From Promethearchaeota archaeon (GTDB lineage: Archaea > Asgardarchaeota > Lokiarchaeia > Sigyniarchaeales > SOKP01), in assembly GCA_011364975.1 (NCBI GenBank), contig RDOE01000097.1, positions 1-10,924 on the forward strand: a DNA stretch of 10,924 nt. The letters run 5' to 3'. Position numbers and translations under genes: made by a program. The notes beneath the pieces were generated by a model that was given only the letters and a program-made list of their open reading frames with translations, made no database searches and was not told where the DNA came from. Of the stretch, positions 1-10,924 are shown piece after piece (positions within the stretch are counted from its first letter, which is position 1; each line of letters starts with the position of its first letter).

Positions 1-813
1 ATGAGGATATTCAAGAATAGATTGATGACTCGCATTCTGAAGGATGATTAATTTACTATTTGGGATCAATTCATGCATCCGTTCACTTATTGCCTTTGGG
101 CAACTTTTATCTTTATCAGCAGCTAAAATTAAAACATCTTGCTTAATTTCTCCTAAACGATTATATACATCATGTGTTTTCAAAGCTTCAGATTGATTGA
201 TTATGTCCTTTTCAGTAGGTCCATTAATTGTTTTTTCTTCAACTAGATCCTCAACTGACCAGATTCCATGAAATTTTTTCTTAGGGTTTTCGTTCATTTG
301 TTTCCAAAAGTTACGCGTATAACTATGTTTAGCACCAATTAGGAAAGTTGCTAAGGGATCTTTTTTGTAGCCTCTCATTCCTTCAATGGTTTTCTTTTTA
401 TTCATTTCGACTGCTTGACTTGGATCCACTCCTGGAGGTGCTATACGGGGTATTGTATTTATTAACACAATTTTATTGATTTTTTTAGGATACTTTAATG
501 CAAAATTTTGAACAATCATGCCTCCTAAACTATGACCAAGAATATTAGTCTTTTGAATTTGAAGGGATTCTAATAATCCATTAATATCATCAGCATAAAT
601 TTCCATCGTATAAGGTTCATCAGGGCGATCTGACTTTCCCGCCCCACGGTTGTCAAATCTAATTACTTTAAAATGCTTTGCTAGATCCCCTACTTGGGCT
701 CGAAAATGTTCTTTTCTATCACTAAATCCATGCACTAAAACTAAAGGATAACCTTCTCCAAAAATTTCATAACAGATATTAATTCCATTAACCTTTGTAA
801 ACTTTTCTACCAT
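1..813 (-). CDS. Alpha/beta-fold hydrolase (esterase/lactonase-like), paralogue 1; 3' end runs off the window
   Basis: Not in the ORF track. Hand translation from ATG at 813 stays open to position 1: MVEKFTKVNGINICYEIFGEGYPLVLVHGFSD...FDNRGAGKSDRP...GHSLGG...ADKDK...NASHQSILEYPH. It has the HGF oxyanion motif, a GxSxG nucleophile elbow, and acid and His positions. It is collinear with the next two ORFs. Confidence 0.93.
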   Translation of the reverse strand, partial: MVEKFTKVNGINICYEIFGEGYPLVLVHGFSDRKEHFRAQVGDLAKHFKVIRFDNRGAGKSDRPDEPYTMEIYADDINGLLESLQIQKTNILGHSLGGMIVQNFALKYPKKINKIVLINTIPRIAPPGVDPSQAVEMNKKKTIEGMRGYKKDPLATFLIGAKHSYTRNFWKQMNENPKKKFHGIWSVEDLVEEKTINGPTEKDIINQSEALKTHDVYNRLGEIKQDVLILAADKDKSCPKAISERMHELIPNSKLIILQNASHQSILEYPH

Positions 814-859
814 GATATTAAATTCCCAGTTTCTATCTTAATAGTTTAGATAAAAAATA

Positions 860-1696
860 CTACGCTGTTAAAAATTCAATTATAAGTTTATTTATTTCAG
901 GTGCTCGTGAGAGGGGAGAACTATGTCCTGCTTTATCAATCACGGTTAGAGTACTATTGGGGATGGTATTATGCATTTCAATCATTGAATTACTAGATGT
1001 TAATTTATCATGAGAAGATGCAATTAATAGGGTAGGATTTTTTATCTGTTGTAAATCTTGATTAGTTATTTTTAGTAAAAGTGCTGTAGATTGATTTATT
1101 ATGTCTTGCGGAGTAAGAGGATTTAAGTTTTCATATCTAATTAAATCCTCAACTGACCATAATCCAAAAAACTTTTTCTTTGGATTTGTTCTCATTTCTT
1201 TCCGAAAACTATAGTAATATCCTAAATGTGTTCCATTCCAGAAAGCTTGAATTGGATTTTTTTTTCGCTCTTCTAATGTTTTTATATGATTTCTTTTTAA
1301 CATTTCTACGCCTTGATTATCTGGTGCTCCCATAACAGTGTTAATTAAAATAATTTTTTTTATTCGATTTGGATATTTGATAGCAAAGTGTTGTACAATA
1401 ATTCCACCTAATGACCATCCAATAATATAAGATTTTTCAATTTTGAGGTAATCCATTAAACCTCTAACATCATCAGCAAGCATTTCTGCAGTATTTGGGT
1501 AATTAGGACGATCAGAGTTCCCTCCATTTCGATTATCAAACCGGATCACCTTAAAATGTTCTGATAAAGGACCAAATTGAGCAATCCAACCTTCTTTATT
1601 ACTTCCGAACCCATGAACTAAGATAACCGGTTCACCTTCACCTTTTATTTCATAACATAATTTTATCCCATTTACATCTGCAAATTTTTCAACCAT
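860..1696 (-). CDS. Alpha/beta-fold hydrolase, paralogue 2 (278 aa)
   Basis: Motifs VHGFG, FDNRNGG, GWSLGG nucleophile, SHDKL acid and AGHSS His give a complete Ser-Asp-His triad. Confidence 0.95.
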   Translation of the reverse strand: MVEKFADVNGIKLCYEIKGEGEPVILVHGFGSNKEGWIAQFGPLSEHFKVIRFDNRNGGNSDRPNYPNTAEMLADDVRGLMDYLKIEKSYIIGWSLGGIIVQHFAIKYPNRIKKIILINTVMGAPDNQGVEMLKRNHIKTLEERKKNPIQAFWNGTHLGYYYSFRKEMRTNPKKKFFGLWSVEDLIRYENLNPLTPQDIINQSTALLLKITNQDLQQIKNPTLLIASSHDKLTSSNSMIEMHNTIPNSTLTVIDKAGHSSPLSRAPEINKLIIEFLTA

Positions 1697-1707
1697 GACT
1701 TAACTAA

Positions 1708-1713
1708 TCTCCT
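1708..1713 (-). promoter_or_regulatory. Possible Shine-Dalgarno sequence (AGGAGA) for hydrolase paralogue 2
   Basis: Purine-rich AGGAGA lies 11 nt upstream of the ATG at 1696 in an otherwise AT-rich spacer. Confidence 0.4.
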
Positions 1714-1745
1714 ACTTAAATATTATATTATGCAAGTTTTATTCA

Positions 1746-1767
1746 GAATTAAAGATTTCCTTAATTC
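1746..1767. repeat. Short intergenic inverted repeat GAATTAA-N8-TTAATTC (possible operator or hairpin)
   Basis: Perfect 7 bp arms at 1746-1752 and 1761-1767, about 50-70 nt upstream of the start at 1696. The region is AT-rich, so chance is possible. Confidence 0.35.
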
Positions 1768-1880
1768 AGGGATCTAGTAATTAAATCTTCTTGCTAATTA
1801 TTTTCCATTAACTTGGGGTATCCAGTCAAAATAATCATTATCATAGATTGTTTACTAATTAGCGGTAAAGTTTTGATCTC

Positions 1881-2717
1881 TTAATTTTCAAGAAAATTTA
1901 TGATATATTCATTTACTTCTGGAGCCTTTTCCTTTGCGGATTCATGACCCGCTTTCTCTATCACTTCTATAATACTATTAGCCATTATTTTATGAAGTTC
2001 AATCATCTTTTCTTTGGGGACGAGTTTATCATGAGATGCTGTAAGAAGCAGGGCTCTATGTTTAATTTCATTAATTCTATCATAAGCATAATAAGTTTTG
2101 AATGAGGCGGCTAAATTGCGTATATCTTGAGGCGTAGGGGAATCTGTTTTATAATACTCTATTAAATCTTGAACTGACCACAATCCATAAAATTTTAAAT
2201 TAGGATTTTCTTTCATCTTTCTTCTAAATTTTGGATAAAATCCAAATTGAGTACTGTCCCAGAATGATTTTTCTGGCATTTGTTTCATTAATTCAATACT
2301 TTTTATTCTAGATTGAATATATGCTTCAGGATCAAAATCTTCGGGAAACTTTGCTAATGTATTTATAAGAATAAGCTTATTTACCATAGATGGATATTTA
2401 ATAGTGAATGTTAATGCAATCATTCCTCCCATAGACAAACCTAAAAGATGAGCCTTTTTAAATTTCAGATAGTCCATTAAAGCTTTAAGATCGTCCGCAA
2501 ACATATCCATAGAGTAAGGATTATTTGGGCGTTCTGTTTTTCCTGCACCACGTGCATCATATGTTAAAACTTTAAATTTTTGAGAAAGAGTGGGGACCTG
2601 TGCCATAAAACTTTCTTTTTTTGAGCCAAATCCATGTATTAAGATTAAAGGATACCCATCACCATCTACTCGATAACAAACCTTAAGACCATTTACATTA
2701 GCGAATCTTTCTTCCAT
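1881..2717 (-). CDS. Alpha/beta-fold hydrolase, paralogue 3 (278 aa with corrected start)
   Basis: Motifs IHGFG, YDARGAG, GLSMGG, SHDKL and AGHES. Start moved from 2774 to the ATG at 2717: MEERFANVNG aligns with MVEKFADVNG and MVEKFTKVNG, and the length then equals paralogue 2 (837 nt). Confidence 0.93.
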   Translation of the reverse strand: MEERFANVNGLKVCYRVDGDGYPLILIHGFGSKKESFMAQVPTLSQKFKVLTYDARGAGKTERPNNPYSMDMFADDLKALMDYLKFKKAHLLGLSMGGMIALTFTIKYPSMVNKLILINTLAKFPEDFDPEAYIQSRIKSIELMKQMPEKSFWDSTQFGFYPKFRRKMKENPNLKFYGLWSVQDLIEYYKTDSPTPQDIRNLAASFKTYYAYDRINEIKHRALLLTASHDKLVPKEKMIELHKIMANSIIEVIEKAGHESAKEKAPEVNEYIINFLEN

Positions 2718-2823
2718 AATCATTCTATACTTCAAATTGAAATAAAATAGTAATAAAATAATTTTAAGAATCATTTTACTTTAATTTAAGTACTTATATT
2801 ACTTTTCGGGGATGTAATTCGAA

Positions 2824-3573
2824 ATTCAAAAAAAAGTAATCATTCAAAGTGTTTCGGGAAATAAACTTCATGCCGTTCATTATCTTTGCTCCACGGAAGG
2901 TTCTAAATCAATTCTTATAATGTGTCATGGATTCACAGGAGACAAATATGAATGGGGTCGTTTTCCTAGATTAGCGAATGAATGTAATAAAGAAGAATTT
3001 GATGCTATTTTTTTTGATTTTTCGGGTTCCGGTGAAAATGAGAGAGTCCCAATAACCGTATTCAAACAAATTCAAGATTTAGAATCAGTTTTTAAATGGG
3101 TACAAGATAGAGGATATAAAAAAATAGCAGTGTTAGGGTTATCTTTCGGAGGACTCACTGCGTTAGGAGCAGAGTTAACTGGAATTAAAGCTTATATATT
3201 TTGGGCGCCATTCTTTTTTTTACATACAACAGAAGATCACTCTGATTGGTTTAGGGATTTAAATAAAGGACCTGTAAGAATCCCTACTTCAGGTGAAGGC
3301 GAACCAATTATTATTGATATGAGCTTTATGACAGACTTTGCGAAAGTTCGAGTTAAATCTAATCTTAAAAAATTGGATATTCCCACATTAATGGTTCAAG
3401 GAACCTCAGATCAATCAGTACCATATGAATTTACAAGAAAAGCATTTTCTTTGTTACCTAAGAATAAAAATAATAAACTAGTTGAAATTAACGATGCAAC
3501 TCATGATTTTGAAGGAAAACATTTAAATGAGTTTATCAACCACACTATTTTATGGCTGAAGGATTATCTATAA
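2824..3573 (+). CDS. Alpha/beta hydrolase of a different family (serine aminopeptidase S33 / S9-like esterase); start uncertain
   Basis: Motifs CHGFTG, FDFSGSGE, GLSFGG nucleophile, QGTSDQSVP acid and ATHDF His. The track start (2920) falls two codons before HGF. The frame is open upstream to 2818 and reads like a hydrolase N-terminus (IQKKVIIQSVSGNKLHAVHY...SILIMCHGF). 2824 (ATT) is a tentative start. Confidence 0.85.
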   Translation: MQKKVIIQSVSGNKLHAVHYLCSTEGSKSILIMCHGFTGDKYEWGRFPRLANECNKEEFDAIFFDFSGSGENERVPITVFKQIQDLESVFKWVQDRGYKKIAVLGLSFGGLTALGAELTGIKAYIFWAPFFFLHTTEDHSDWFRDLNKGPVRIPTSGEGEPIIIDMSFMTDFAKVRVKSNLKKLDIPTLMVQGTSDQSVPYEFTRKAFSLLPKNKNNKLVEINDATHDFEGKHLNEFINHTILWLKDYL

Positions 3574-3584
3574 AATTTCTAGAT

Positions 3585-5930
3585 TTATTTATTCTCTATT
3601 ATTTTAGGGGGTGTAAGTTTCAATAATTCATAGTTTTCAAGTAAACCTTTTAAATAATCATCTTGTATTAAAACTTTTTTCGTGTTTGGGATATATTCTA
3701 CATTTACACCAGATTTAGCTAATTGATCAATCATCATCTTGCCATAGTAATTTGTTGATAATTCATGGATATCATATTTTTCATTAGTTTCTTTATATAT
3801 TTTACAATTTTCTAATTTATTCTTCAATTCCAAAATTAGCTTTAAAGTCCATTTTCGAAATATAGCAAACTGTTTCAATTCTTTAATATTAATCTCATTA
3901 TACGATTCTTTTTTAATTAGATCTGTTAAAATTTTCGCAACTTCATTTTTAAGGTCAATTTTTAGAAGTTGTAATGATTCTCTCTTCAATGAATCTCTCT
4001 TAAACCTATCTAATTGTTTCAAATTGCTGAAAATTTGTGAATAGCGTTTAAATCCGATCATTCTTAGAACTTTATTTTTATAATCTGGTCTTTCCAAAAC
4101 ATTAAGATAAATTTTGTTTAGTTCTTTTATTATTTTATTATGGATAAATTCAAAGAATATCTTTTTGCTACTTTCTTTATCTGGTAAAAAACTTATATTA
4201 AATCGCTCTTCTATGAGATCATAAGCATCTATTTCATCAATCTTATACTTTTTCATATCTATAATAATTTCAAAAGGAATATAGGTAGAGACAAACTCCA
4301 TACCTCTCCAAATAAGCTCTATAGCAGTTTTGAAATTTATCCTTCTTATTGGATGCATAACTTTAATATTACCTGCTTTAATTTCGATTGGTTTTTTATA
4401 GCAGAGAATCAAGTCAAAAGGTTTAATTTCATTTGTTAAAGGATGATTGGTATCCGGAATTATAAATCCATCCGAAAATTGACAGATATAGCTTCCTAAA
4501 ATAGGCCTCTGCGCTAAATCCCATTCAACCAAGATATATTTTTCAAGTTCTTTTATATTAATATCGAAGTTTACTTCGATAATTTTCTCATTCTTAACAA
4601 CATTTTTAATCTGTGGATTTTCTAATCCCCAAAAATTTTTTACTTTATATTCTATAGGATTATTTCCGTTGAATATCTCTTTAAAAATAGGATAATTTTC
4701 TACAAAGAAAGTTTGGTCAATATATTCTAGGTGATGTTTTTCGATACCACATTTTTCTATCACGTAATAATATAAAGGTGATTCATTGCGACGTGTAGAA
4801 GTCCAAATTAAAGTAGGATAATCATGTTTATATCTAAAATTCATCTCTGGTAATTTGTCAGATTGTATATTTTCTATTATAAGAGATCTCAGAAAAGCAT
4901 GCTTTTGATGTAATCCTTCGATAAATAAATCTTTCAGTTTTTCTTTATACTTACCAATTTTTATGTAGAGGTCATTTCTATTACTGAAATTGCATGAATT
5001 AGCAACTCTTAAATAAGCATCTAAATGTTCTTCTGAATCCATATTTAATATTGCTTCTTCTACTGAATTAAGAGTATCTTGTTCAATTAGATGATTAATG
5101 TTTGCTTTTTTTTCACTTGATATTTCATGAAAATATTTTTCAATGTGAATTTGAGAATTCAAATTATTCAATAAGAGATATTTAAGGATTACATTGTCAA
5201 CAAAATTAATTTTTAAATTTTGAATTATTTTATAAGCCGCCTTTTCAGGAAACGATTTTAAAAGAGATTTAATATTAATAATTATCTCTACCTGCTGAAA
5301 AAACTCTTTTTTACCAAAATTTTCAAGTAGATTATTTAATATCGCTTCTATTTCATCATCGTGGTCTTTTAGTAATTCCTTAAACTTTACTACATATTTT
5401 AAATACTGATCATATAATTTATGATTTAAAGATACTTCTGCTATTTTCTCAACGTATGAGAAATTATTAGACTCATTATATGCTTGTTCGAGGAAATTAA
5501 TTGCCTCATAAATCTTCGAACTTTTGATAAGTTCTTCTGCTTTTAAAATAAAATTCTCTATCTTACTTTGTTTTACGAGATTGAAATTTGATGAGAAATT
5601 AATGTTTCGAATATTTTTACAAATAACTTCACAAATTTCTGGTTCTATTAATAAAAGTACCTTCACAACATGTTTACAAAATTTAAAATTTTTTTTGAAA
5701 TCAGGGCAATCATGAATTATGTTGATTTTATTAAAATCCTCGAAAATATCAACCACATATTTAGCGTTGTTTGAACCTTGAAGATTAGCCAGTATTTTTA
5801 TTTTAGGGTCAGTCGAAATATTTAAATTGATTATGTTCTTATCTGGAATCGCCTTTCCTCTAGCTAATCTTGCACCCATTACATATCGTTTAAAAAACTC
5901 TGCATTTCCTGGGTTATTTTTAAGCTCCAT
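3585..5930 (-). CDS. Large SWIM-type zinc-finger protein (781 aa) with helical/TPR-like region and uncharacterised C-terminal half
   Basis: The N-terminus follows the prokaryotic SWIM pattern: ARG...ANLQGS..KYVVDI...HDCPDF-x6-FCKHVVKVLL (H73, C75, C85, H87). A TPR-like helix pair follows (AEELIKSSKIYEAINFLEQAY). The gene starts 27 nt after the vWA gene stop. Confidence 0.8.
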   Translation of the reverse strand: MELKNNPGNAEFFKRYVMGARLARGKAIPDKNIINLNISTDPKIKILANLQGSNNAKYVVDIFEDFNKINIIHDCPDFKKNFKFCKHVVKVLLLIEPEICEVICKNIRNINFSSNFNLVKQSKIENFILKAEELIKSSKIYEAINFLEQAYNESNNFSYVEKIAEVSLNHKLYDQYLKYVVKFKELLKDHDDEIEAILNNLLENFGKKEFFQQVEIIINIKSLLKSFPEKAAYKIIQNLKINFVDNVILKYLLLNNLNSQIHIEKYFHEISSEKKANINHLIEQDTLNSVEEAILNMDSEEHLDAYLRVANSCNFSNRNDLYIKIGKYKEKLKDLFIEGLHQKHAFLRSLIIENIQSDKLPEMNFRYKHDYPTLIWTSTRRNESPLYYYVIEKCGIEKHHLEYIDQTFFVENYPIFKEIFNGNNPIEYKVKNFWGLENPQIKNVVKNEKIIEVNFDINIKELEKYILVEWDLAQRPILGSYICQFSDGFIIPDTNHPLTNEIKPFDLILCYKKPIEIKAGNIKVMHPIRRINFKTAIELIWRGMEFVSTYIPFEIIIDMKKYKIDEIDAYDLIEERFNISFLPDKESSKKIFFEFIHNKIIKELNKIYLNVLERPDYKNKVLRMIGFKRYSQIFSNLKQLDRFKRDSLKRESLQLLKIDLKNEVAKILTDLIKKESYNEINIKELKQFAIFRKWTLKLILELKNKLENCKIYKETNEKYDIHELSTNYYGKMMIDQLAKSGVNVEYIPNTKKVLIQDDYLKGLLENYELLKLTPPKIIENK

Positions 5931-5957: not shown

Positions 5958-8663
5958 TCATTGATTTGATATTATATCTGAGATGAGTTTGGGAAAATCT
6001 CTCCATTGATTTAAAGTAAGTAATACTCCATTAGCTTCTTTAACCATCTTTTTTGCCATAACTGCAGAGAAATTAAATTTAGGAACTACCATAACAAACT
6101 TTATATCTTTCTCTTTCATTTTTTTAAGCTCTCCCAAACTATTATTATAATCAAAAACATCAGCATCAGTAAATAAAATATTTAATTTATATTTCGAACG
6201 TGCCTTTTTTTCAAACTGTAAATTGGCCCACTTAAGCGCTGATTGGATACATGTCCCCCCTCTTGCTGAAATATCAAGTAATTCATCAACAACTTTTTCA
6301 AGTTCCACATTGTCATCTAAATTTTTTAATTTATGAGTGTTGGATTCAAAAAATGTTAAAGCAAACTCTTCAGGTTTAAAGGCATATACTAACATGGTTG
6401 CACATAGTGCCATTTGAGCTAATTTTTGTCCTGTCATACTTCCACTAATATCTAATTCAAGAACGAGACAACGTAATCCATCAGTAGTTTTAGAAACTAA
6501 AAAATCATCATTACTGATCATGTCAACTGTTTTTCCTCCTTCTAATAAACTATTGATTGTTTCTTCTAAATCAATTAATTCAAAGTCATCTCCTAGCGTA
6601 TATGGAATAACAATATTCTCTACTAATGGACCTGATTTTGCAGTTCCGATAAGTGAGTTAGCAGACCTTATTCCTAAGTCAATCATGATCTGCTTAATAA
6701 TTTCTTTTAATTTTTTCTTTACATTAGCAGATACATTATGTCTAGAATAAAACCACTGTTCTAACAGATCTAAACCACCTCCGGCCCCTAAAGAAGAAAG
6801 AGCCATATCCAATGCTTGAGACCCCATTTTTTCCGCTGAATTTAGAACCTGAGAAAGAAACTTTTCATCTAAAGCACTTAATGCCGCAAGGTTTGGATTA
6901 TTTTGGTTTGCTCCACCAATAGCAAGTTTTACTAATTCATCTACTTGTTGTGGTGCGAGTTGCATCTGATTTAGAAAATCCTTATATGATTGATACGAAC
7001 CCTCGTTTGATTCAACTAGTTTTTTTAAAAATTTAAAATTAGGCTGAATCAAATTCAATATTTCCTCTTCTGCCATGTTAAGACGTTCTCCTGCTGTTTT
7101 AATAGATTCGATATCTGGGAGGAAGCCCTGATTATTAAAATCTTTGACCATTTTACCAAGATTTTCTTTATTTTCAGCATTTTCAATTAAATCATTTATT
7201 AACTCAGAAATTTTATAGCTCAATTGAGATTGAGCTGAATAATCTAGTACATTATCTTTATTGTCAATAAGCTTGTCTATGTAATCTTTAACTTGGGAAT
7301 TTATTAACTGTTCATCGCTATAATCTTGATTAATAGATTGAATTTCTTTATCAACTATATTACTTATTAATTTTCGCCATGATGGAACCTTTATTGGATT
7401 ATTCAGTAGTTGGTGCTTTATTTCATCTAAATTCTGGTCTTTTACAAATGAATCTAAGTTATCAAGAATTTCATTTAGGTATTGTTCACTCAAATTATTA
7501 CCAAAATACTGATCAAAATTCCTTACGTTTTGATAAGCATCTTTAAACGGTAAATTTAAACTGTTTCCTATAATGTTCTCAAGTGTACTAATATCGAAAT
7601 TCAAATCTGTTCCTAATGTTTTTGAAGCGTTGAAAAGATCATTTAAATTCCTATTATTCTCTTGAAAGTATTTTGTAATTACATCCTTTAATATTTGCTC
7701 ACTGTTTGCATCCAAAATATTTGACTTAAGAGCAAATTCCATTACATTTAATCCATTATAGAAATTTTCACTAAAAACTTTTTCCAGTGCATCTCGAAAA
7801 GAATTGTAATCTTTATCTTTTGAAAGGAAATTCAAAATTTCTTGGATCTGTTGTTCTGTAAGGTTCATAATATTATTGAATATATCCTTTTCATTAGATA
7901 AGTTGGTTTCCTGTTTTCTAAAATTTGAATCAGCCATTACATTATTTAAATATTTGAGCATCTCTTGAATGTAATTTTGATCAAAATTTTCGTTATTCTG
8001 TCGAGATATAAATTCTGATAATATTTTTTCCCTTAAAGTACTAGAATTGGATAAGATTTCTTTTGAAAGATTGAGTTTTTGAGCCGTTAAAATATCTTCA
8101 GGATCAAGATGATTTATTTTTTTTCTTAAAAGCTCCTTAGCATAATTTAATAGACTGTTCAAATCTGTAAATCGGTTAAAATCAGTAATAGCATTTTTAT
8201 CAATAAAATCCAAAGCTGTCTTATAAGGATCCTCATCTAATTCTTTATTAAATTTAGCGAGGAAATCATTTAAACTCTCATCTAATAATTGATCTAGATT
8301 AAAATCCTTTATGTTGTCATAAAATTTATCTAAAAAATCAAAATCATCAATAATTCTATCTAATTCACTCAAATTCAATCCAATATCATTCACTAAGTTG
8401 GAAGCCTTTACCTCACCAAAGAGATCTGCCGATAGATTTTTTGAGGATAATGTATTCGTGGAGGAATCTTTGAAACTAAGAAGTTCTATCGCAATTTTGC
8501 GTGCTAAAATTTGGTTTTCTAATGGGCTTGTAATAACAGCTATCTCAATAAAATCTCGATCCTCACAAGTTCCTTTATTCATAAATCTTGCTAAGATTAA
8601 TTTGCAAATTGCAATAGCTTGACGTATAGACGGTTTATATGCACATTTTTCATGTCTTCTCAT
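5958..8663 (-). CDS. Large vWA (MIDAS) domain protein, likely MoxR partner; true start may lie upstream near 8717
   Basis: C-terminal vWA domain with intact MIDAS: LELDISGSM (DxSxS at 6438-6452), GGT and LFTD. It is preceded by an IDLEETI motif of the kind seen ahead of the vWA domain in CoxE-like proteins. It has a long, apparently helical middle region and lies directly downstream of the MoxR gene. Confidence 0.92.
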   Translation of the reverse strand: MRRHEKCAYKPSIRQAIAICKLILARFMNKGTCEDRDFIEIAVITSPLENQILARKIAIELLSFKDSSTNTLSSKNLSADLFGEVKASNLVNDIGLNLSELDRIIDDFDFLDKFYDNIKDFNLDQLLDESLNDFLAKFNKELDEDPYKTALDFIDKNAITDFNRFTDLNSLLNYAKELLRKKINHLDPEDILTAQKLNLSKEILSNSSTLREKILSEFISRQNNENFDQNYIQEMLKYLNNVMADSNFRKQETNLSNEKDIFNNIMNLTEQQIQEILNFLSKDKDYNSFRDALEKVFSENFYNGLNVMEFALKSNILDANSEQILKDVITKYFQENNRNLNDLFNASKTLGTDLNFDISTLENIIGNSLNLPFKDAYQNVRNFDQYFGNNLSEQYLNEILDNLDSFVKDQNLDEIKHQLLNNPIKVPSWRKLISNIVDKEIQSINQDYSDEQLINSQVKDYIDKLIDNKDNVLDYSAQSQLSYKISELINDLIENAENKENLGKMVKDFNNQGFLPDIESIKTAGERLNMAEEEILNLIQPNFKFLKKLVESNEGSYQSYKDFLNQMQLAPQQVDELVKLAIGGANQNNPNLAALSALDEKFLSQVLNSAEKMGSQALDMALSSLGAGGGLDLLEQWFYSRHNVSANVKKKLKEIIKQIMIDLGIRSANSLIGTAKSGPLVENIVIPYTLGDDFELIDLEETINSLLEGGKTVDMISNDDFLVSKTTDGLRCLVLELDISGSMTGQKLAQMALCATMLVYAFKPEEFALTFFESNTHKLKNLDDNVELEKVVDELLDISARGGTCIQSALKWANLQFEKKARSKYKLNILFTDADVFDYNNSLGELKKMKEKDIKFVMVVPKFNFSAVMAKKMVKEANGVLLTLNQWRDFPKLISDIISNQ

Positions 8664-8761
8664 TGCAGTAATAAATTTAAGGGAAAACCAGACGGGATTT
8701 TCACTAAAAAGTACTATGCTTAATCACAACCAGACTTAATTTATATTATAAATTTTAAAAT

Positions 8762-9856
8762 CTAACCTAAAACTTGAGATATTATATTATTGATAACATC
8801 ATTTACTTTTACCCCAGGTTTAGTTTGAATAGCACCATATAGAACATTTCTTGATAAATCTTTTAGAATTTTACTGGGATCTTGTCCACCATCTTTACTT
8901 TGAGCAACACCACTTAAGCGAGCTAATGCAATTCCACTTCTTAAACTAGCTGGAGTTTGAATTTGATGATGAGTTCGTGTTCGATTGATAATTAAATAGA
9001 TTTTTTCTAAGATACTCTCATCAATTTTATAATAGGGATTATTATGTTCAATAATTTTCATTTCAGTCTTTTTATCAGGATAATCTAACTCAATCCATAC
9101 ATTAAAACGATCCTTTAAAGCTTCGCCTAACCTATGTGTTCCAACTAATTCAGAGGGATTCATAGCTCCAATGAAAAAGAAACCAGAAGATGCCTTAATT
9201 CGACCTAAATGAGGGATAGATAACATCTTTTCTTCTAACGGCTCAAGTAATGAATTTTGAGTATATTCTGTTGCCCTATTAATTTCGTTAGCTAAAAATA
9301 CTCCTCCATTAAGCATAGATTTTACTAAAGGACCAGGATTAAATGCTTCAAAAGAGAAACCTTTTTGAATTGTAGTTGCCGGATTGAATGAACCAACTAA
9401 ATGTGCTGGTTTTGTTGATTCATCGAAAGTAATCCATTCAAATGAGTCATTACCTGTTATTTCTGCTCTTGATTGCGCATAATATCTACAAAGAGTTGTC
9501 TTTCCTATCCCGGGAGGTCCAACTAAAATCGGATACAAATTTGAAGCATCTGCTTCATAAATTAGTTCAAGTGCCTCTTCATATTGCCCTGACAGCACAA
9601 TCTGCATCTTCTCTTCATTTTGAGATAGTAAATTCTTTTCAAATAACTCTTTTAATGAATATTTAGTCTTATTAGTTTGATTCTTAATGGAATTTTTTAA
9701 ATACGGAGACTTTTTCAAAACTGTAAGATTATCTAATTTTTCCTTTTCGACTCCATTCTTATTTGGTTTATTATCGGAAATTTTAGAAGAAATTGTTTCC
9801 TTTGTTTCTTTAGATTTATTTATTTCACTTTCAATAATTGCAGGTTTCTTAGCCAT
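8762..9856 (-). CDS. MoxR-family AAA+ ATPase (364 aa)
   Basis: Walker A GPPGIGKT, LVGSF.P and F.PGPLVKSM..GG motifs, Walker B region VFLANEINRA, TQNSLL, sensor-1 GAMNP, arginine finger ALKDRF, LDYP and lid motif ASLR. Confidence 0.95.
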   Translation of the reverse strand: MAKKPAIIESEINKSKETKETISSKISDNKPNKNGVEKEKLDNLTVLKKSPYLKNSIKNQTNKTKYSLKELFEKNLLSQNEEKMQIVLSGQYEEALELIYEADASNLYPILVGPPGIGKTTLCRYYAQSRAEITGNDSFEWITFDESTKPAHLVGSFNPATTIQKGFSFEAFNPGPLVKSMLNGGVFLANEINRATEYTQNSLLEPLEEKMLSIPHLGRIKASSGFFFIGAMNPSELVGTHRLGEALKDRFNVWIELDYPDKKTEMKIIEHNNPYYKIDESILEKIYLIINRTRTHHQIQTPASLRSGIALARLSGVAQSKDGGQDPSKILKDLSRNVLYGAIQTKPGVKVNDVINNIISQVLG

Positions 9857-9965: not shown

Positions 9966-10924
9966 TTACATATAATTAATGATTTGACAATCACATTTCT
10001 TACATTTACCTTTGGATGTTAATCCAATTTTAGTAATTTCATAATCTAATCGCTTGATTAATAACGCTTTACATGTAGGACAATAGGTATTTTCATAATT
10101 GGAAGAAGGAAGATTGCCGAGATAAACAAAATCTAAACCAATACTTTTTGCTATATTATAAGCCTTTATTAAGGATGAAATGGGTGTTGGACTAATAAAG
10201 CCATATTCACTAGATTTATATTGTGGAAACGCTCGGGTTAAATGGAAAGGAGTGGATTTGCCAAGTTTAGTAACTATGTTTTCGCAAATTTCTTTAATTA
10301 CACTTTCATCAGTATTATAATTTTCAATTAATAGAGTTGTTAGTTCTATATGAATTCCTAAATCTTTTGCTAATTTGGCATTTCTCCAGACGATCTCAAT
10401 ATCAGTGCCACAAAATTTTCTAACCATCTCATAATTACCCTTAATATCAATATTCATTGCATCTAACCCATTATGTGCTAAATCTCTTAAGACTTCTTCA
10501 GTCATATATCCATTACTTACATATGTATTGTAGAAACCCTTCAACTTTGCAAATTTAAAGACTTCTAAAGAATATTCAAACAATAAAGTGGGCTCATTAA
10601 AAGAAATTGAAGTTCCTTGACAATTATTCTTTATAGCTAACTCAATAACCTTTTCTGGTGGAAGGAATTCTCTTGCATTATTTATTAATTCTCCTATATC
10701 TCCATTTGGATGGGAGATATTATGATTCTGACACCAAAAACAATTGAAATTACAACCATATGTGCCTATAGTTATTGCAACACTTCCAGGATAAAAATGA
10801 AAAAATGGTTTCTTTTCAATTGGATTATAAGAAAGAGCGGGAATCAAACCATGTATAAAAGATCCAATCACTCCATCTTTATTAATTCTTGTCTTACAGA
10901 ATCCTATCTCATCTTTATAAATCC
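9966..10924 (-). CDS. amrS: AmmeMemoRadiSam system radical SAM enzyme (PflA-related); 5' end lies beyond the window
   Basis: Family signature PIEKKPFFHFYPG, CxxxCxxC (GCNFNCFWCQN), SFNEPT, NIDIKG, YLGN and C-terminal CPTC...CKKC. The frame stays open upstream of the track's GTG at 10871 to the window edge (IYKDEIGFCKTRINKDG), matching the usual GxCxxRxNxxG segment. Confidence 0.9.
   Translation of the reverse strand, partial: IYKDEIGFCKTRINKDGVIGSFIHGLIPALSYNPIEKKPFFHFYPGSVAITIGTYGCNFNCFWCQNHNISHPNGDIGELINNAREFLPPEKVIELAIKNNCQGTSISFNEPTLLFEYSLEVFKFAKLKGFYNTYVSNGYMTEEVLRDLAHNGLDAMNIDIKGNYEMVRKFCGTDIEIVWRNAKLAKDLGIHIELTTLLIENYNTDESVIKEICENIVTKLGKSTPFHLTRAFPQYKSSEYGFISPTPISSLIKAYNIAKSIGLDFVYLGNLPSSNYENTYCPTCKALLIKRLDYEITKIGLTSKGKCKKCDCQIINYM

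What the first reader, a model, noticed from the sequence alone, without database searches (positions are those of the whole stretch)
8480..8989. vWA protein begins with an orphan AAA+ lid segment resembling the adjacent ATPase's own lid
Seen: vWA frame ITAMRRHEKCAYKPSIRQAIAICKL (8598-8672) aligns without gaps to MoxR INRTRTHHQIQTPASLRSGIALARL (8915-8989). There are 8 identities in 25 by hand, with pattern I-x3-R-x-H-x7-S-[IL]-R-x2-I-A-x3-L. Established: this S-x-R helix is the MoxR lid carrying the sensor-2 Arg. No P-loop or Walker motifs are evident in the vWA protein. Inference: a lid without an ATPase core could dock into or cap the MoxR ring by mimicry, or supply a sensor-2 Arg in trans. 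It may be a relic of an ATPase duplication, a more reduced analogue of the degenerate AAA module of BchD/ChlD.
Basis: partly seen in the sequence, partly recalled or inferred. Interest (0 to 1): 0.8.

Follow-up and report, generated by a model that had tools for sequence, protein, structure and literature searches.

The report
Orphan AAA+ lid on vWA protein
The large vWA protein encoded next to a MoxR-type ATPase in this Asgard archaeon begins with an 80-residue domain that descends from the ATPase's small "lid" subdomain but has no ATPase core, and this unusual, previously undescribed head piece probably tethers the protein to the ATPase ring.

Summary
The vWA protein starts about 18 codons upstream of its first ATG, at ATA 8717. 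Its first ~85 residues are a conserved four-helix module. Profile-profile comparison matches this module to AAA+ lids (hhalign P=3.4e-10; controls P>=0.04). HMM searches of the whole genome find the match in both directions. The AlphaFold model (pLDDT 93.8) has chelatase, CbbQ, NorQ, dynein and MCM lids as its best structural matches, at middling Z (8.2-5.8). The S-x-R arginine is kept in 195 of 195 family members and the R of R-x-H in 99%; the H is kept in only 53%. The module is always N-terminal and never follows a P-loop core. It heads an Asgard family of ~850-aa proteins built as lid module, acidic linker and MIDAS vWA domain. These lie in a conserved MoxR-vWA-SWIM-like cassette. The proposed mechanisms (capping, trans sensor-2) are untested, and the ATPase keeps its own sensor-2 Arg. 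I favour a role as an anchor on the MoxR small subdomain, as shown for the unrelated N-domains of NorD and CobT. It is a new variant of a known kind, of moderate interest.

The parts
8463..8717 (-). Lid-derived N-terminal module of the vWA protein (~85 aa). Model helices lie at 8655-8696, 8574-8627, 8532-8561 and 8475-8522. Invariant Arg (sensor-2 equivalent) is at 8622-8624, Ser at 8628-8630, and the Arg of R-x-H at 8658-8660.
   Evidence: Alignments A1/A2. AF2 model with pLDDT 93.8. hhalign and HMM matches to lids. Structural matches.
8715..8717 (-). Probable non-canonical start codon ATA. Relatives have ATG, GTG, TTG or ATT at this aligned position, preceded by a Shine-Dalgarno-like element (window: ggttgtgatt at about 8721-8730).
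   Evidence: The 18 codons between 8717 and ATG 8663 are conserved as protein, with synonymous differences, in 8 relatives.
8118..8462 (-). Acidic segment right after the module (residues 86-200 counted from 8717; 21% D/E, net charge -10). It is the start of a ~600-residue Asn/Leu/Asp/Glu-rich middle region.
6078..6575 (-). C-terminal vWA domain (Pfam VWA_2 and VWA_CoxE). The MIDAS motif D-I-S-G-S is at 6438-6452.
   Evidence: D-x-S-x-S is present in 76 of 76 complete orthologous ORFs.
5958..8717 (-). Whole vWA protein gene: 919 aa from ATA 8717, or 901 aa from ATG 8663.
8762..9856 (-). Cognate MoxR-type AAA+ ATPase (AAA_5, 364 aa). Walker A GPPGIGKT is at 9497-9520. Its own lid is at about 8765-9082, with sensor-2 Arg R306 at 8939-8941. 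It has a Lys/Thr/Pro-rich N-terminal extension of ~70 aa.
3585..5930 (-). Third gene of the cassette: a 781-aa protein with a weak SWIM zinc-finger-like match (residues 74-94, E=0.008).
   Evidence: A homologue lies directly downstream in 69 of 80 related loci and in the paralogous cassette of the same genome.

Best explanation
The first ~85 residues of the vWA protein (8463-8717, minus strand) are a stand-alone descendant of the small alpha-helical 'lid' subdomain of an AAA_5/MoxR-type ATPase. It covers lid helices alpha6 to alpha8 plus one further helix. It lacks alpha5 and the whole P-loop core. It arose once, most likely from a duplicated, BchD-like ATPase-vWA protein whose core was lost. 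It now heads an Asgard-archaeal family of ~850-aa proteins built as lid module, long acidic/helical linker and C-terminal MIDAS vWA domain. These proteins are always encoded directly after a MoxR ATPase and before a SWIM-like protein. Inferred mechanism: the module is the anchor that docks the vWA protein onto the MoxR hexamer, most likely on or beside a protomer's small subdomain. The vWA domain engages the ring and the client, so that ATP-driven movements stretch or twist the linker, as proposed for NorQD and CobST. Shown here: homology, fold, conservation, architecture and synteny. Inferred: binding to MoxR, the binding site, and the role of the invariant Arg.
For: Sequence evidence. hhalign of the N-module family against ATPase lids gives Prob 96.7%, P=3.4e-10. 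Against the whole cognate MoxR it gives P=1.6e-6, at residues 279-342 of 364. Controls give P>=0.044. Among 9091 six-frame ORFs of the genome, the module HMM ranks the two vWA N-termini first and the two cognate MoxR lids third and fourth (E 0.027, 0.054). An HMM built only from ATPase lids ranks four MoxR ATPases first and the two vWA N-termini fifth and sixth (E 0.0051, 0.014; next hit 0.091). It also matches 195 of 195 modules. In other Asgard genomes the module HMM directly hits the lids of Walker-A ATPases (E 4.9e-8 to 6.7e-4 per genome).
Structural evidence. The AF2 model has pLDDT 93.8 and pTM 0.84, with four helices, and the invariant Arg sits in the first turn of helix 30-47. In the VIA-align search of 48,161 chains, rank 1 is dynein (Z 8.2, rmsd 2.9, 82 aligned), rank 2 the CbbQ2 lid (Z 6.8, residues 195-272) and rank 3 the BchI lid (Z 6.5, residues 267-350). 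NorQ residues 193-269 score Z 5.8. In all, 15 of the 50 listed rows are AAA+ proteins. The second look puts the ChlI lid (residues 269-354) on top at Z 8.1, with the next row at 6.1.
Conservation over 195 rows: R31 100%, R19 99%, S29 94%, D54 98%.
Architecture. 135 of 136 library hits carry the module within the first 48 residues. 21 of 22 distant full-length members have a C-terminal vWA domain.
Synteny. An upstream ORF ends 13-47 nt before the module in 75 of 80 loci, and 74 of these have a Walker A. A SWIM-like gene lies downstream in 69 of 80 loci.
Origin. The modules form one cluster (UFboot 99 / SH-aLRT 95) next to a cognate MoxR lid. The fused AAA_5-linker-vWA protein P0221 has a lid that matches module positions 12-82.
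Mechanistic analogy. The NorD N-domain binds the small helical subdomain of NorQ (PMC13036017, passages). The CobT N-domain binds the CobS small domain (bioRxiv 10.64898/2026.10.09.757910 and 10.64898/2026.07.21.739949, passages). ChlD's inactive AAA+ N-domain mediates association with ChlI (PMC6604950, Introduction).
Against: Plain HMMER finds no lid. A single sequence and two profiles against PDB sequences found none. Pfam gave 0 lid families for 30 Asgard modules. It gave only 2 sub-threshold lid hits among 68 distant members: AAA_lid_2 at E 0.12 and the midasin lid at E 0.18. Foldseek found no match with E<=0.001 (best 1.1). The VIA Z scores (8.2-5.8) are in the range the tool itself calls common for helical bundles, and cyclin boxes, TFIIB, ATP-cones and bromodomains score similarly. 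The match to classical AAA_3 MoxR lids is weak (P=0.023), and ChlI-like lids of relatives gave no profile match. Nothing here shows that the module binds MoxR. There is no cognate-specific similarity signal. The MoxR model was too poor to use (pLDDT 47.6). In NorD and CobT the anchoring N-domains are not lid-like, so the functional analogy rests on position in the protein only.
Confidence: 0.55

Rival explanations
1. The module is lid-derived, but its present job is target or partner recognition rather than docking on the ATPase. It would bind the SWIM-like protein or the unknown client, and the vWA domain alone would hold the protein on the MoxR ring.
For: Kahle et al. proposed that the variable N-domains of MoxR-associated vWA proteins mainly give target specificity (PMC9976466, passages). 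The SWIM-like gene is co-conserved in 69 of 80 loci. The short vWA partners of other Asgard MoxR ATPases lack the module altogether, so it is not needed for MoxR-vWA pairing in general.
Against: Later structures show the NorD and CobT N-domains sitting on the ATPase small subdomain (PMC13036017; bioRxiv 2026.10.09.757910; passages). The residues most conserved in the module are those most conserved in real lids. That points to a surface inherited from the ATPase context.
Confidence: 0.22
2. The orphan lid occupies a lid position on the MoxR ring, for example at the seam. It caps a protomer or inserts its invariant Arg (sensor-2 equivalent) into a nucleotide site in trans, so that it reads or tunes ATP hydrolysis.
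For: R31 is kept in 195 of 195 modules and R19 in 99%, although there is no core to serve. These are the same positions as the invariant R306 and R294 of the ATPase. In the model R31 sits at the N-terminal turn of a helix, as a sensor-2 Arg does.
Against: The cognate MoxR retains its own invariant S304/R306, so no site obviously lacks an Arg. No complex model could be made. No case of a lid acting in trans came up in my reading or is known to me (recalled; I made no search aimed at trans-acting lids). The Arg could instead be structural or contact another partner.
Confidence: 0.13
3. There is no common ancestry. The module is a generic four-helix bundle whose resemblance to lids is convergent or due to composition.
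For: Foldseek was not significant. Z scores are below 13, and unrelated helical folds are interleaved with the lids. HMMER against PDB and Pfam was negative.
Against: Genome-wide HMM searches find the match in both directions. hhalign gives P=3.4e-10, with clean reversed and permuted controls. The alignment is almost gapless over 61 columns, with the invariant residues coinciding. Direct HMM hits fall on the lids of unrelated-context ATPases.
Confidence: 0.07

Closest known systems
BchD/ChlD subunit of Mg-chelatase (with BchI/ChlI)
   Same: It partners a MoxR-clade AAA+ motor encoded nearby. Its order is N-terminal ATPase-derived part, acidic linker, then C-terminal integrin-I/vWA domain with MIDAS. 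The ATPase-derived part has no measured ATPase activity and mediates association with the motor (PMC6604950, abstract and Introduction). The ChlI and BchI lids are among the best structural matches of the module (Z 8.1 and 6.5).
   Different: ChlD keeps a whole AAA+ module (~40% identical to ChlI). Here only lid helices remain, with no alpha/beta core and no Walker motifs. The vWA protein has no NCBIfam BchD-ChlD match. The linker is ~600 residues and the ATPase is AAA_5-type, not ChlI-type.
NorQ-NorD, CbbQ-CbbO and CobS-CobT (AAA_5 MoxR ATPase plus vWA adaptor)
   Same: There is an adjacent AAA_5 ATPase gene. The adaptor is built as N-terminal domain, long flexible linker and C-terminal MIDAS vWA. 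In NorQD and CobST the N-domain docks on the ATPase small subdomain (PMC13036017; bioRxiv 10.64898/2026.10.09.757910; passages). NorQ and CbbQ lids match the module structurally.
   Different: Their N-domains are unrelated folds. CobT_N resembles an M48C peptidase domain (bioRxiv 10.64898/2026.07.21.739949, passage). NorD's N-domain is ~224 residues and is described as not conserved among such adaptors (PMC9976466, passages). The clients here are unknown. A SWIM-like third gene replaces the known clients.
Canonical AAA+ lid of MoxR/AAA_5 ATPases (including the neighbouring gene's own lid)
   Same: The helices are in the same order and register (alpha6-alpha8). It shares the I-x3-R-x-H...P/A-S-x-R-x2-I-A-x3-L pattern, with the Arg at the start of the third lid helix.
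   Different: It is not attached to a nucleotide-binding core, it lacks alpha5, and it has a different last helix (E-N/D-Q...A...A motif). It forms its own cluster apart from all ATPase lids.
Natural fused AAA_5-linker-vWA protein (P0221, 647 aa, unnamed metagenomic source)
   Same: Its lid is followed by an acidic, Pro/Gly-rich linker and a VWA_CoxE domain in one chain. The lid aligns to module positions 12-82. It is a possible picture of the ancestor.
   Different: It has an intact Walker A and an AAA_5 core. It is a single example, and its genomic context and organism are unknown.

Membership tests
AAA+ small (lid) subdomain | Profile-level sequence similarity to bona fide lids | tested here: met
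   hhalign P=3.4e-10 and P=1.6e-6, with clean controls. HMM ranking is reciprocal in the whole genome. Direct HMM hits fall on ATPase lids in other genomes.
AAA+ small (lid) subdomain | Compact helical bundle that superposes on solved lids | tested here: met
   The AF2 model has pLDDT 93.8 and four helices. The top VIA matches are dynein Z 8.2, ChlI lid Z 8.1, CbbQ lid Z 6.8, BchI lid Z 6.5 and NorQ lid Z 5.8-6.0. Caveats: these Z values are middling for helical models, and Foldseek was not significant.
AAA+ small (lid) subdomain | Sensor-2 Arg at the N-terminus of the third lid helix | tested here: met
   R31 is kept in 195 of 195 rows. It aligns with the invariant R306 of the ATPase. It sits in the first turn of helix 30-47. 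Whether it contacts a nucleotide is unknown.
AAA+ small (lid) subdomain | Follows a P-loop alpha/beta core in the same polypeptide | tested here: not met
   In all 80 loci the ORF opens at most 19 codons upstream of the module. The module is N-terminal in 135 of 136 library hits. There is no Walker A and no AAA Pfam domain. It is therefore an orphan lid, not an AAA+ protein.
AAA+ small (lid) subdomain | Match to a curated Pfam AAA_lid family above threshold | tested here: not met
   0 of 30 modules matched. There were 2 sub-threshold hits among 68 distant members.
MoxR-vWA two-component remodelling systems (NorQD/CbbQO/CobST type) | vWA protein encoded beside an AAA_5/MoxR ATPase | tested here: met
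   Window genes. 75 of 80 loci have the upstream ORF, 74 with a Walker A. The same genome holds a paralogous cassette.
MoxR-vWA two-component remodelling systems (NorQD/CbbQO/CobST type) | C-terminal vWA domain with a MIDAS D-x-S-x-S motif, preceded by an N-domain and a long linker | tested here: met
   76 of 76 complete ORFs carry D-x-S-x-S.
MoxR-vWA two-component remodelling systems (NorQD/CbbQO/CobST type) | Physical complex, with a vWA finger in the ATPase pore | not testable with these tools
No full-length model was made.
BchD/ChlD | Complete, if inactive, N-terminal AAA+ module | tested here: not met
   Only lid helices are present. The vWA protein has no TIGR02031 match.

The most novel reading that the evidence does not exclude
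The lid-only module is a working pseudo-subunit fragment. It inserts at a lid position of the MoxR spiral, for example at the seam, and uses its universally conserved sensor-2-type Arg to read or complete a nucleotide site in trans. This would couple the ATP state of the ring directly to the tethered MIDAS domain. It would then be the minimal end-point of BchD-like pseudo-ATPase reduction. Because it sits in an Asgard AAA_5 + long acidic linker + MIDAS system, it would also be a prokaryotic model for how midasin-type motors connect ring, linker and MIDAS domain.
Probability: 0.12. Interest if true: 0.8.

Novelty: new variant of a known kind. Interest (0 to 1): 0.55.

Why it matters
MoxR-vWA pairs are widespread but poorly understood remodelling machines. 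Recent structures show that the adaptor's N-domain grips the ATPase's small subdomain, yet those N-domains are unrelated to one another. Here the N-domain is itself a relic of the ATPase: a free-standing lid that keeps the sensor-2 Arg. This gives a concrete evolutionary series: motor + full pseudo-ATPase-vWA (ChlI/ChlD), then motor + lid-only-vWA. It also defines an undescribed domain family found in 83 of 201 sampled genomes of the phylum. The question it raises is simple to test: what does a lid do without its ATPase? The system is Asgard-specific as far as named sequences go, and its client is unknown.

Tried and rejected
- HMMER against PDB sequences, with one sequence, the Asgard profile A1 and the broad profile A4, found no lid.
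- Pfam on 30 modules gave nothing. PADLOC gave nothing for the vWA or SWIM-like proteins. NCBIfam gave nothing for them either.
- Foldseek against the PDB gave no match with E<=0.001.
- hhalign against ChlI-like lids and a second group of lids carrying Pfam AAA_lid_2, both from relatives, gave no match (P 0.42, 0.44). Against classical AAA_3 MoxR lids the match was only P=0.023, though at the lid position.
- Sub-group hhalign, done to see whether modules resemble their own cognate lid more than the paralogue's, was uninformative because Neff was low.
- A recent local DNA duplication of the MoxR 3' end is rejected: no repeat links the two sites, and the module family is deep and diverse.
- A mis-called or split gene with an AAA core upstream in frame is rejected. 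The frame is closed by a stop at 8724-8726. In all 80 loci it opens at most 19 codons before the module.
- A special relation of the ATPase to midasin is not supported. Midasin's E=4.8e-29 is summed over several AAA stretches of 12-21 bits each. The best single-domain hit is MoxR 2r44, 46.9 bits.
- The MoxR AF2 model had pLDDT 47.6, too poor for fold search. Only its secondary-structure register was noted.
- Searching homologues of a short family member (P0127) gave no names.
- Literature searches for a prior description found no paper on a lid-like N-domain in a vWA partner or on this Asgard cassette. They were MoxR+vWA+SWIM, MoxR+von Willebrand+Asgard, SWIM+AAA+VWA+Asgard and MoxR+VWA+'lid domain'.
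- The E. coli yehL/yehP/yehQ lead (a recalled resemblance: AAA_5 + vWA + SWIM genes) could not be followed. One genome announcement only was found.


Full report
**What is in the window**

All genes around the finding lie on the minus strand. In order they are:
- A radical-SAM gene (9966-10871).
- A 364-aa AAA+ ATPase (8762-9856). It matches Pfam AAA_5 at 4.7e-21 and AAA_3 at 5.7e-16. Its best single-domain PDB relatives are MoxR 2r44 and NorQ.
- A large vWA protein (5958-8663/8717). VWA_2 and VWA_CoxE domains lie near the C-terminus, and the MIDAS motif DISGS is present.
- A 781-aa protein with a weak SWIM-like zinc-finger match (3585-5930).
- Four alpha/beta-hydrolase genes.

Homologues of the vWA protein that carry a name are all Asgard archaea: Promethearchaeota, Lokiarchaeota, Hermod-, Thor- and Hodarchaeota.

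**The observation**

They align without gaps with 8 of 25 identities, and BLASTP gives E=0.016 for that one comparison. On its own this is marginal. No DNA repeat links the two sites, so any relationship is old and visible only at protein level.

**The true N-terminus**

Most orthologues begin about 18-19 residues upstream of the window's first ATG, with M-I-I-F-P-x-x-P-V-W-F-S-L-K-F-I....

In the window this frame is open from 8723 and reads ...IVLFSENPVWFSLKFITA-MRRHEK. It has no ATG, GTG or TTG before 8663.

In 80 related loci the frame opens at most 19 codons before the module. A Shine-Dalgarno-like element precedes the aligned start. That start is ATG or TTG in most loci, GTG in one relative, ATT in four loci, and ATA (8717) in the window.

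Across eight relatives, the 18 upstream codons keep the same amino acids while differing at synonymous sites. So 8664-8717 is coding.

**A conserved module**

Alignments of 30 and 35 N-termini (A1, A2) show an ~82-residue block with many invariant positions.

A profile of A2 was searched against 1.84 billion representative proteins and found 136 proteins (E<=0.001).
- In 135 of them the module starts within the first 48 residues. The exception is a small repeat protein matched by a fragment.
- None carries the module after an ATPase core.
- 21 of 22 distant full-length members have a C-terminal vWA domain.
- Some members are short (~390-480 aa), with the module followed soon by VWA_CoxE.

Conservation across 195 family rows:

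| Residue (A2 numbering) | Kept in |
|---|---|
| Arg of S-x-R (R31) | 100% |
| Ser of S-x-R (S29) | 94% |
| Pro before it (P28) | 94% |
| Arg of R-x-H (R19) | 99% |
| His of R-x-H (H21) | 53% |

The His is kept in at least 90% of the two Asgard paralogue groups.

The window protein has no Walker A pattern.

**Is it a lid? Sequence evidence**

Plain HMMER against PDB sequences and Pfam sees nothing. There are two sub-threshold lid hits among 68 distant members, both placed on the module: AAA_lid_2 at E 0.12 and the midasin lid at E 0.18.

Profile-profile comparison is clear.

| hhalign comparison | Result |
|---|---|
| 195-row module profile vs whole cognate MoxR alignment | Prob 90%, P=1.6e-6, on residues 279-342 of 364, S-x-R motifs superposed |
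| Same profile vs 75 ATPase lids alone | Prob 96.7%, P=3.4e-10, 61 columns, almost gapless |
| Reversed target | P=0.55 |
| Reversed query | P=0.61 |
| 40 column-permuted queries | best P=0.044 |

Genome-wide HMM searches agree in both directions, over 9091 six-frame ORFs of the window's own genome.
- The module HMM ranks the two vWA N-termini first and the two cognate MoxR lids next (E 0.027, 0.054).
- An HMM built only from ATPase lids ranks four MoxR-type ATPases first and the two vWA N-termini fifth and sixth (E 0.0051, 0.014; next hit 0.091).

In a sample of 201 genomes of the phylum, the module HMM also hit the lids of ~300-330-aa Walker-A ATPases directly (E 4.9e-8 to 6.7e-4 per genome). 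Two of these ATPases have short vWA partners that lack the module.

The positions invariant in the ATPase lids (I290, R294, S304, R306, I309) are the ones retained in the module.

Against classical AAA_3 MoxR lids the match is weak (P=0.023) but falls at the right place. ChlI-like lids of relatives gave no profile match.

**Is it a lid? Structural evidence**

AlphaFold2 on A2 gives a confident model: pLDDT 93.8, pTM 0.84. It has helices 7-20, 30-47, 52-61 and 65-80 and a small beta-bridge. R31 lies in the first turn of the second helix.

Foldseek against the PDB finds nothing significant. The best E is 1.1, and NorQ appears at rank 22 with TM 0.50.

The Foldseek-independent VIA-align search of 48,161 chains gives the following:

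| Rank | Chain | Z | Matched residues |
|---|---|---|---|
| 1 | Yeast dynein 7mgm_A | 8.2 (rmsd 2.9, all 82 residues aligned) | 3922-4018 |
| 2 | MoxR-type CbbQ2 | 6.8 | 195-272 |
| 3 | BchI | 6.5 | 267-350 |
| 20 | NorQ | 5.8 | 193-269 |

- By my recollection the dynein range is the AAA6 small-domain region.
- Several other dyneins, MCMs and ORC1 also appear.
- In all, 15 of the 50 listed rows are AAA+ proteins.
- For CbbQ2, BchI and NorQ the matched ranges run to the end of the chain. For the other AAA+ rows, that the range is the small domain is my reading, not checked.

The second look at Foldseek's candidates puts the ChlI lid (269-354) on top at Z 8.1, two units above the next row.

The tool warns that such Z values are common for helical bundles. 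Cyclin boxes, TFIIB, ATP-cones and bromodomains are interleaved with the lids. The structural evidence therefore agrees with the lid reading but would not carry it alone.

The MoxR model itself was poor (pLDDT 47.6). This point is weak.

**Extent of the module**

The module corresponds to lid helices alpha6-alpha8 (lid positions 19-80 of 106). It lacks alpha5, the helix that follows the core, and has its own last helix.

**Origin**

In a maximum-likelihood tree (116 rows, only 70 columns), the 94 modules form one cluster (UFboot 99 / SH-aLRT 95). The nearest lid is that of a cognate AAA_5 MoxR (support 96/74). AAA_3 and ChlI-like lids are distant (quick version).

A search for longer relatives of the ATPase found a natural 647-aa fusion. 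It is built as AAA_5 core, lid, acidic Pro/Gly-rich linker and VWA_CoxE. Its lid aligns to module positions 12-82.

Together with ChlD, this makes 'duplicated ATPase-vWA protein that lost its core' the simplest history. ChlD is a full but inactive AAA+ module, followed by an acidic linker and an integrin-I domain (PMC6604950, abstract and Introduction). The history is inferred, not shown.

**Context**

- An upstream ORF ends 13-47 nt before the module in 75 of 80 loci, and 74 of these have a Walker A. Three of the other five loci have fewer than 100 nt upstream.
- A homologue of the SWIM-like protein follows in 69 of 80 loci.
- D-x-S-x-S is present in 76 of 76 complete vWA ORFs.
- The window's genome holds a second, paralogous cassette on another contig. 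It also holds a third MoxR-vWA pair whose vWA protein (a 375-aa open frame) gave no module-HMM hit.
- The module was found in 83 of 201 sampled genomes of the phylum, and in 49 of 85 high-quality ones.
- The module is basic (net charge +4). The next 115 residues are strongly acidic (net -10).

**Mechanism**

Nothing here shows binding, and the complex predictor was unavailable. The best-supported inference comes from recent structures of AAA_5-type MoxR-vWA machines.
- In NorQD and CobST the adaptor's N-terminal domain docks on the ATPase small subdomain.
- The vWA domain sits in the concave face with a finger in the pore.
- The long linker between them is stretched or twisted by ATP-driven rotation.

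These points come from passages of PMC13036017 and of bioRxiv 10.64898/2026.10.09.757910 and 10.64898/2026.07.21.739949.

Those N-domains are not lid-like. CobT_N resembles an M48C peptidase, and NorD's N-domain is described as not conserved among adaptors (PMC9976466, passages).

I therefore read the Asgard module as the anchor or stator of the same kind of machine, recruited from the ATPase's own lid.

The absolute conservation of R31 and R19 in a domain with no core begs an explanation. However, the ATPase keeps its own invariant sensor-2 Arg, so nothing calls for an Arg in trans.

A third option is that the module recognises the SWIM-like protein or the client.

**Novelty**

Four literature searches found no description of a lid-like N-domain in a MoxR-associated vWA protein or of this Asgard cassette. 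Pfam, NCBIfam and PADLOC have no model for the module.

It is a new variant of a known kind: a MoxR-vWA adaptor, a BchD-like pseudo-ATPase taken to its minimum. It is not a new kind of system. Interest is moderate. The finding is solid and offers a neat, testable question, but the function of the cassette is unknown.

Noticed in passing
window 8715-8717 (minus strand); L017, L018, L019, L025: The vWA gene appears to start at a non-canonical codon: ATA in the window and ATT in four related loci. A Shine-Dalgarno-like element lies upstream, where other relatives have ATG, TTG or GTG. Several database gene calls for close relatives start at the internal Met and so truncate the module.
   Followed up: partly
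own genome, contig C200 (L005: 8020-8961, 5500-8001, 3134-5497, all minus strand): A second, paralogous MoxR - lid-vWA - SWIM-like cassette lies in the same genome. Its ATPase (313 aa) lacks the Lys/Thr/Pro-rich N-terminal extension seen in the window's ATPase.
   Followed up: partly
own genome, contig C194 (ATPase 10273-11145 +; vWA match 11469-12251 +): A third MoxR-type ATPase sits directly before a vWA gene (a 375-aa open frame) that gave no hit to the lid-module HMMs. Similar short pairs occur in other Asgard genomes (L118, L119).
   Followed up: partly
window 9650-9856 (minus strand): The window's ATPase and its orthologues carry a ~70-residue low-complexity, Lys/Thr/Ser/Pro-rich N-terminal extension (MAKKP...). 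The AF2 model gives it very low confidence there (pLDDT below 50 for residues 1-73), which suggests it is disordered. Its role is unknown.
   Followed up: no
window 1-2774 (minus strand) and 2920-3573 (plus strand): There are three tandem paralogous alpha/beta-hydrolase genes (Abhydrolase_1, E 1e-32 to 1e-37). A fourth, shorter hydrolase-fold gene lies on the opposite strand, next to the cassette.
   Followed up: no
window 3585-5930 (minus strand): The third cassette gene has only a partial SWIM-like motif (H-D-C-P-D-F-x7-C-K-H; Pfam SWIM E=0.008) and no other recognisable domain. Its paralogue in L005 has no Pfam hit at all.
   Followed up: partly
window 9966-10871 (minus strand): The radical-SAM gene upstream of the cassette ends in two C-x-x-C pairs (CPTC...CKKC), suggestive of a zinc ribbon. 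Whether it is conserved next to the cassette was not checked.
   Followed up: no
L060 (record titled as a Nanopelagicaceae bacterium MAG): One of the 80 loci carrying the Asgard-type cassette is labelled as an actinobacterial MAG. Its sequence is nearly the same as Asgard loci (for example L058), so the contig is probably mis-binned.
   Followed up: no
P0222 (1923 aa, JGI name 'midasin'): The search for longer relatives of the ATPase returned a 1923-aa multi-AAA protein named midasin from a metagenome. Its origin, prokaryotic or eukaryotic, was not examined.
   Followed up: no
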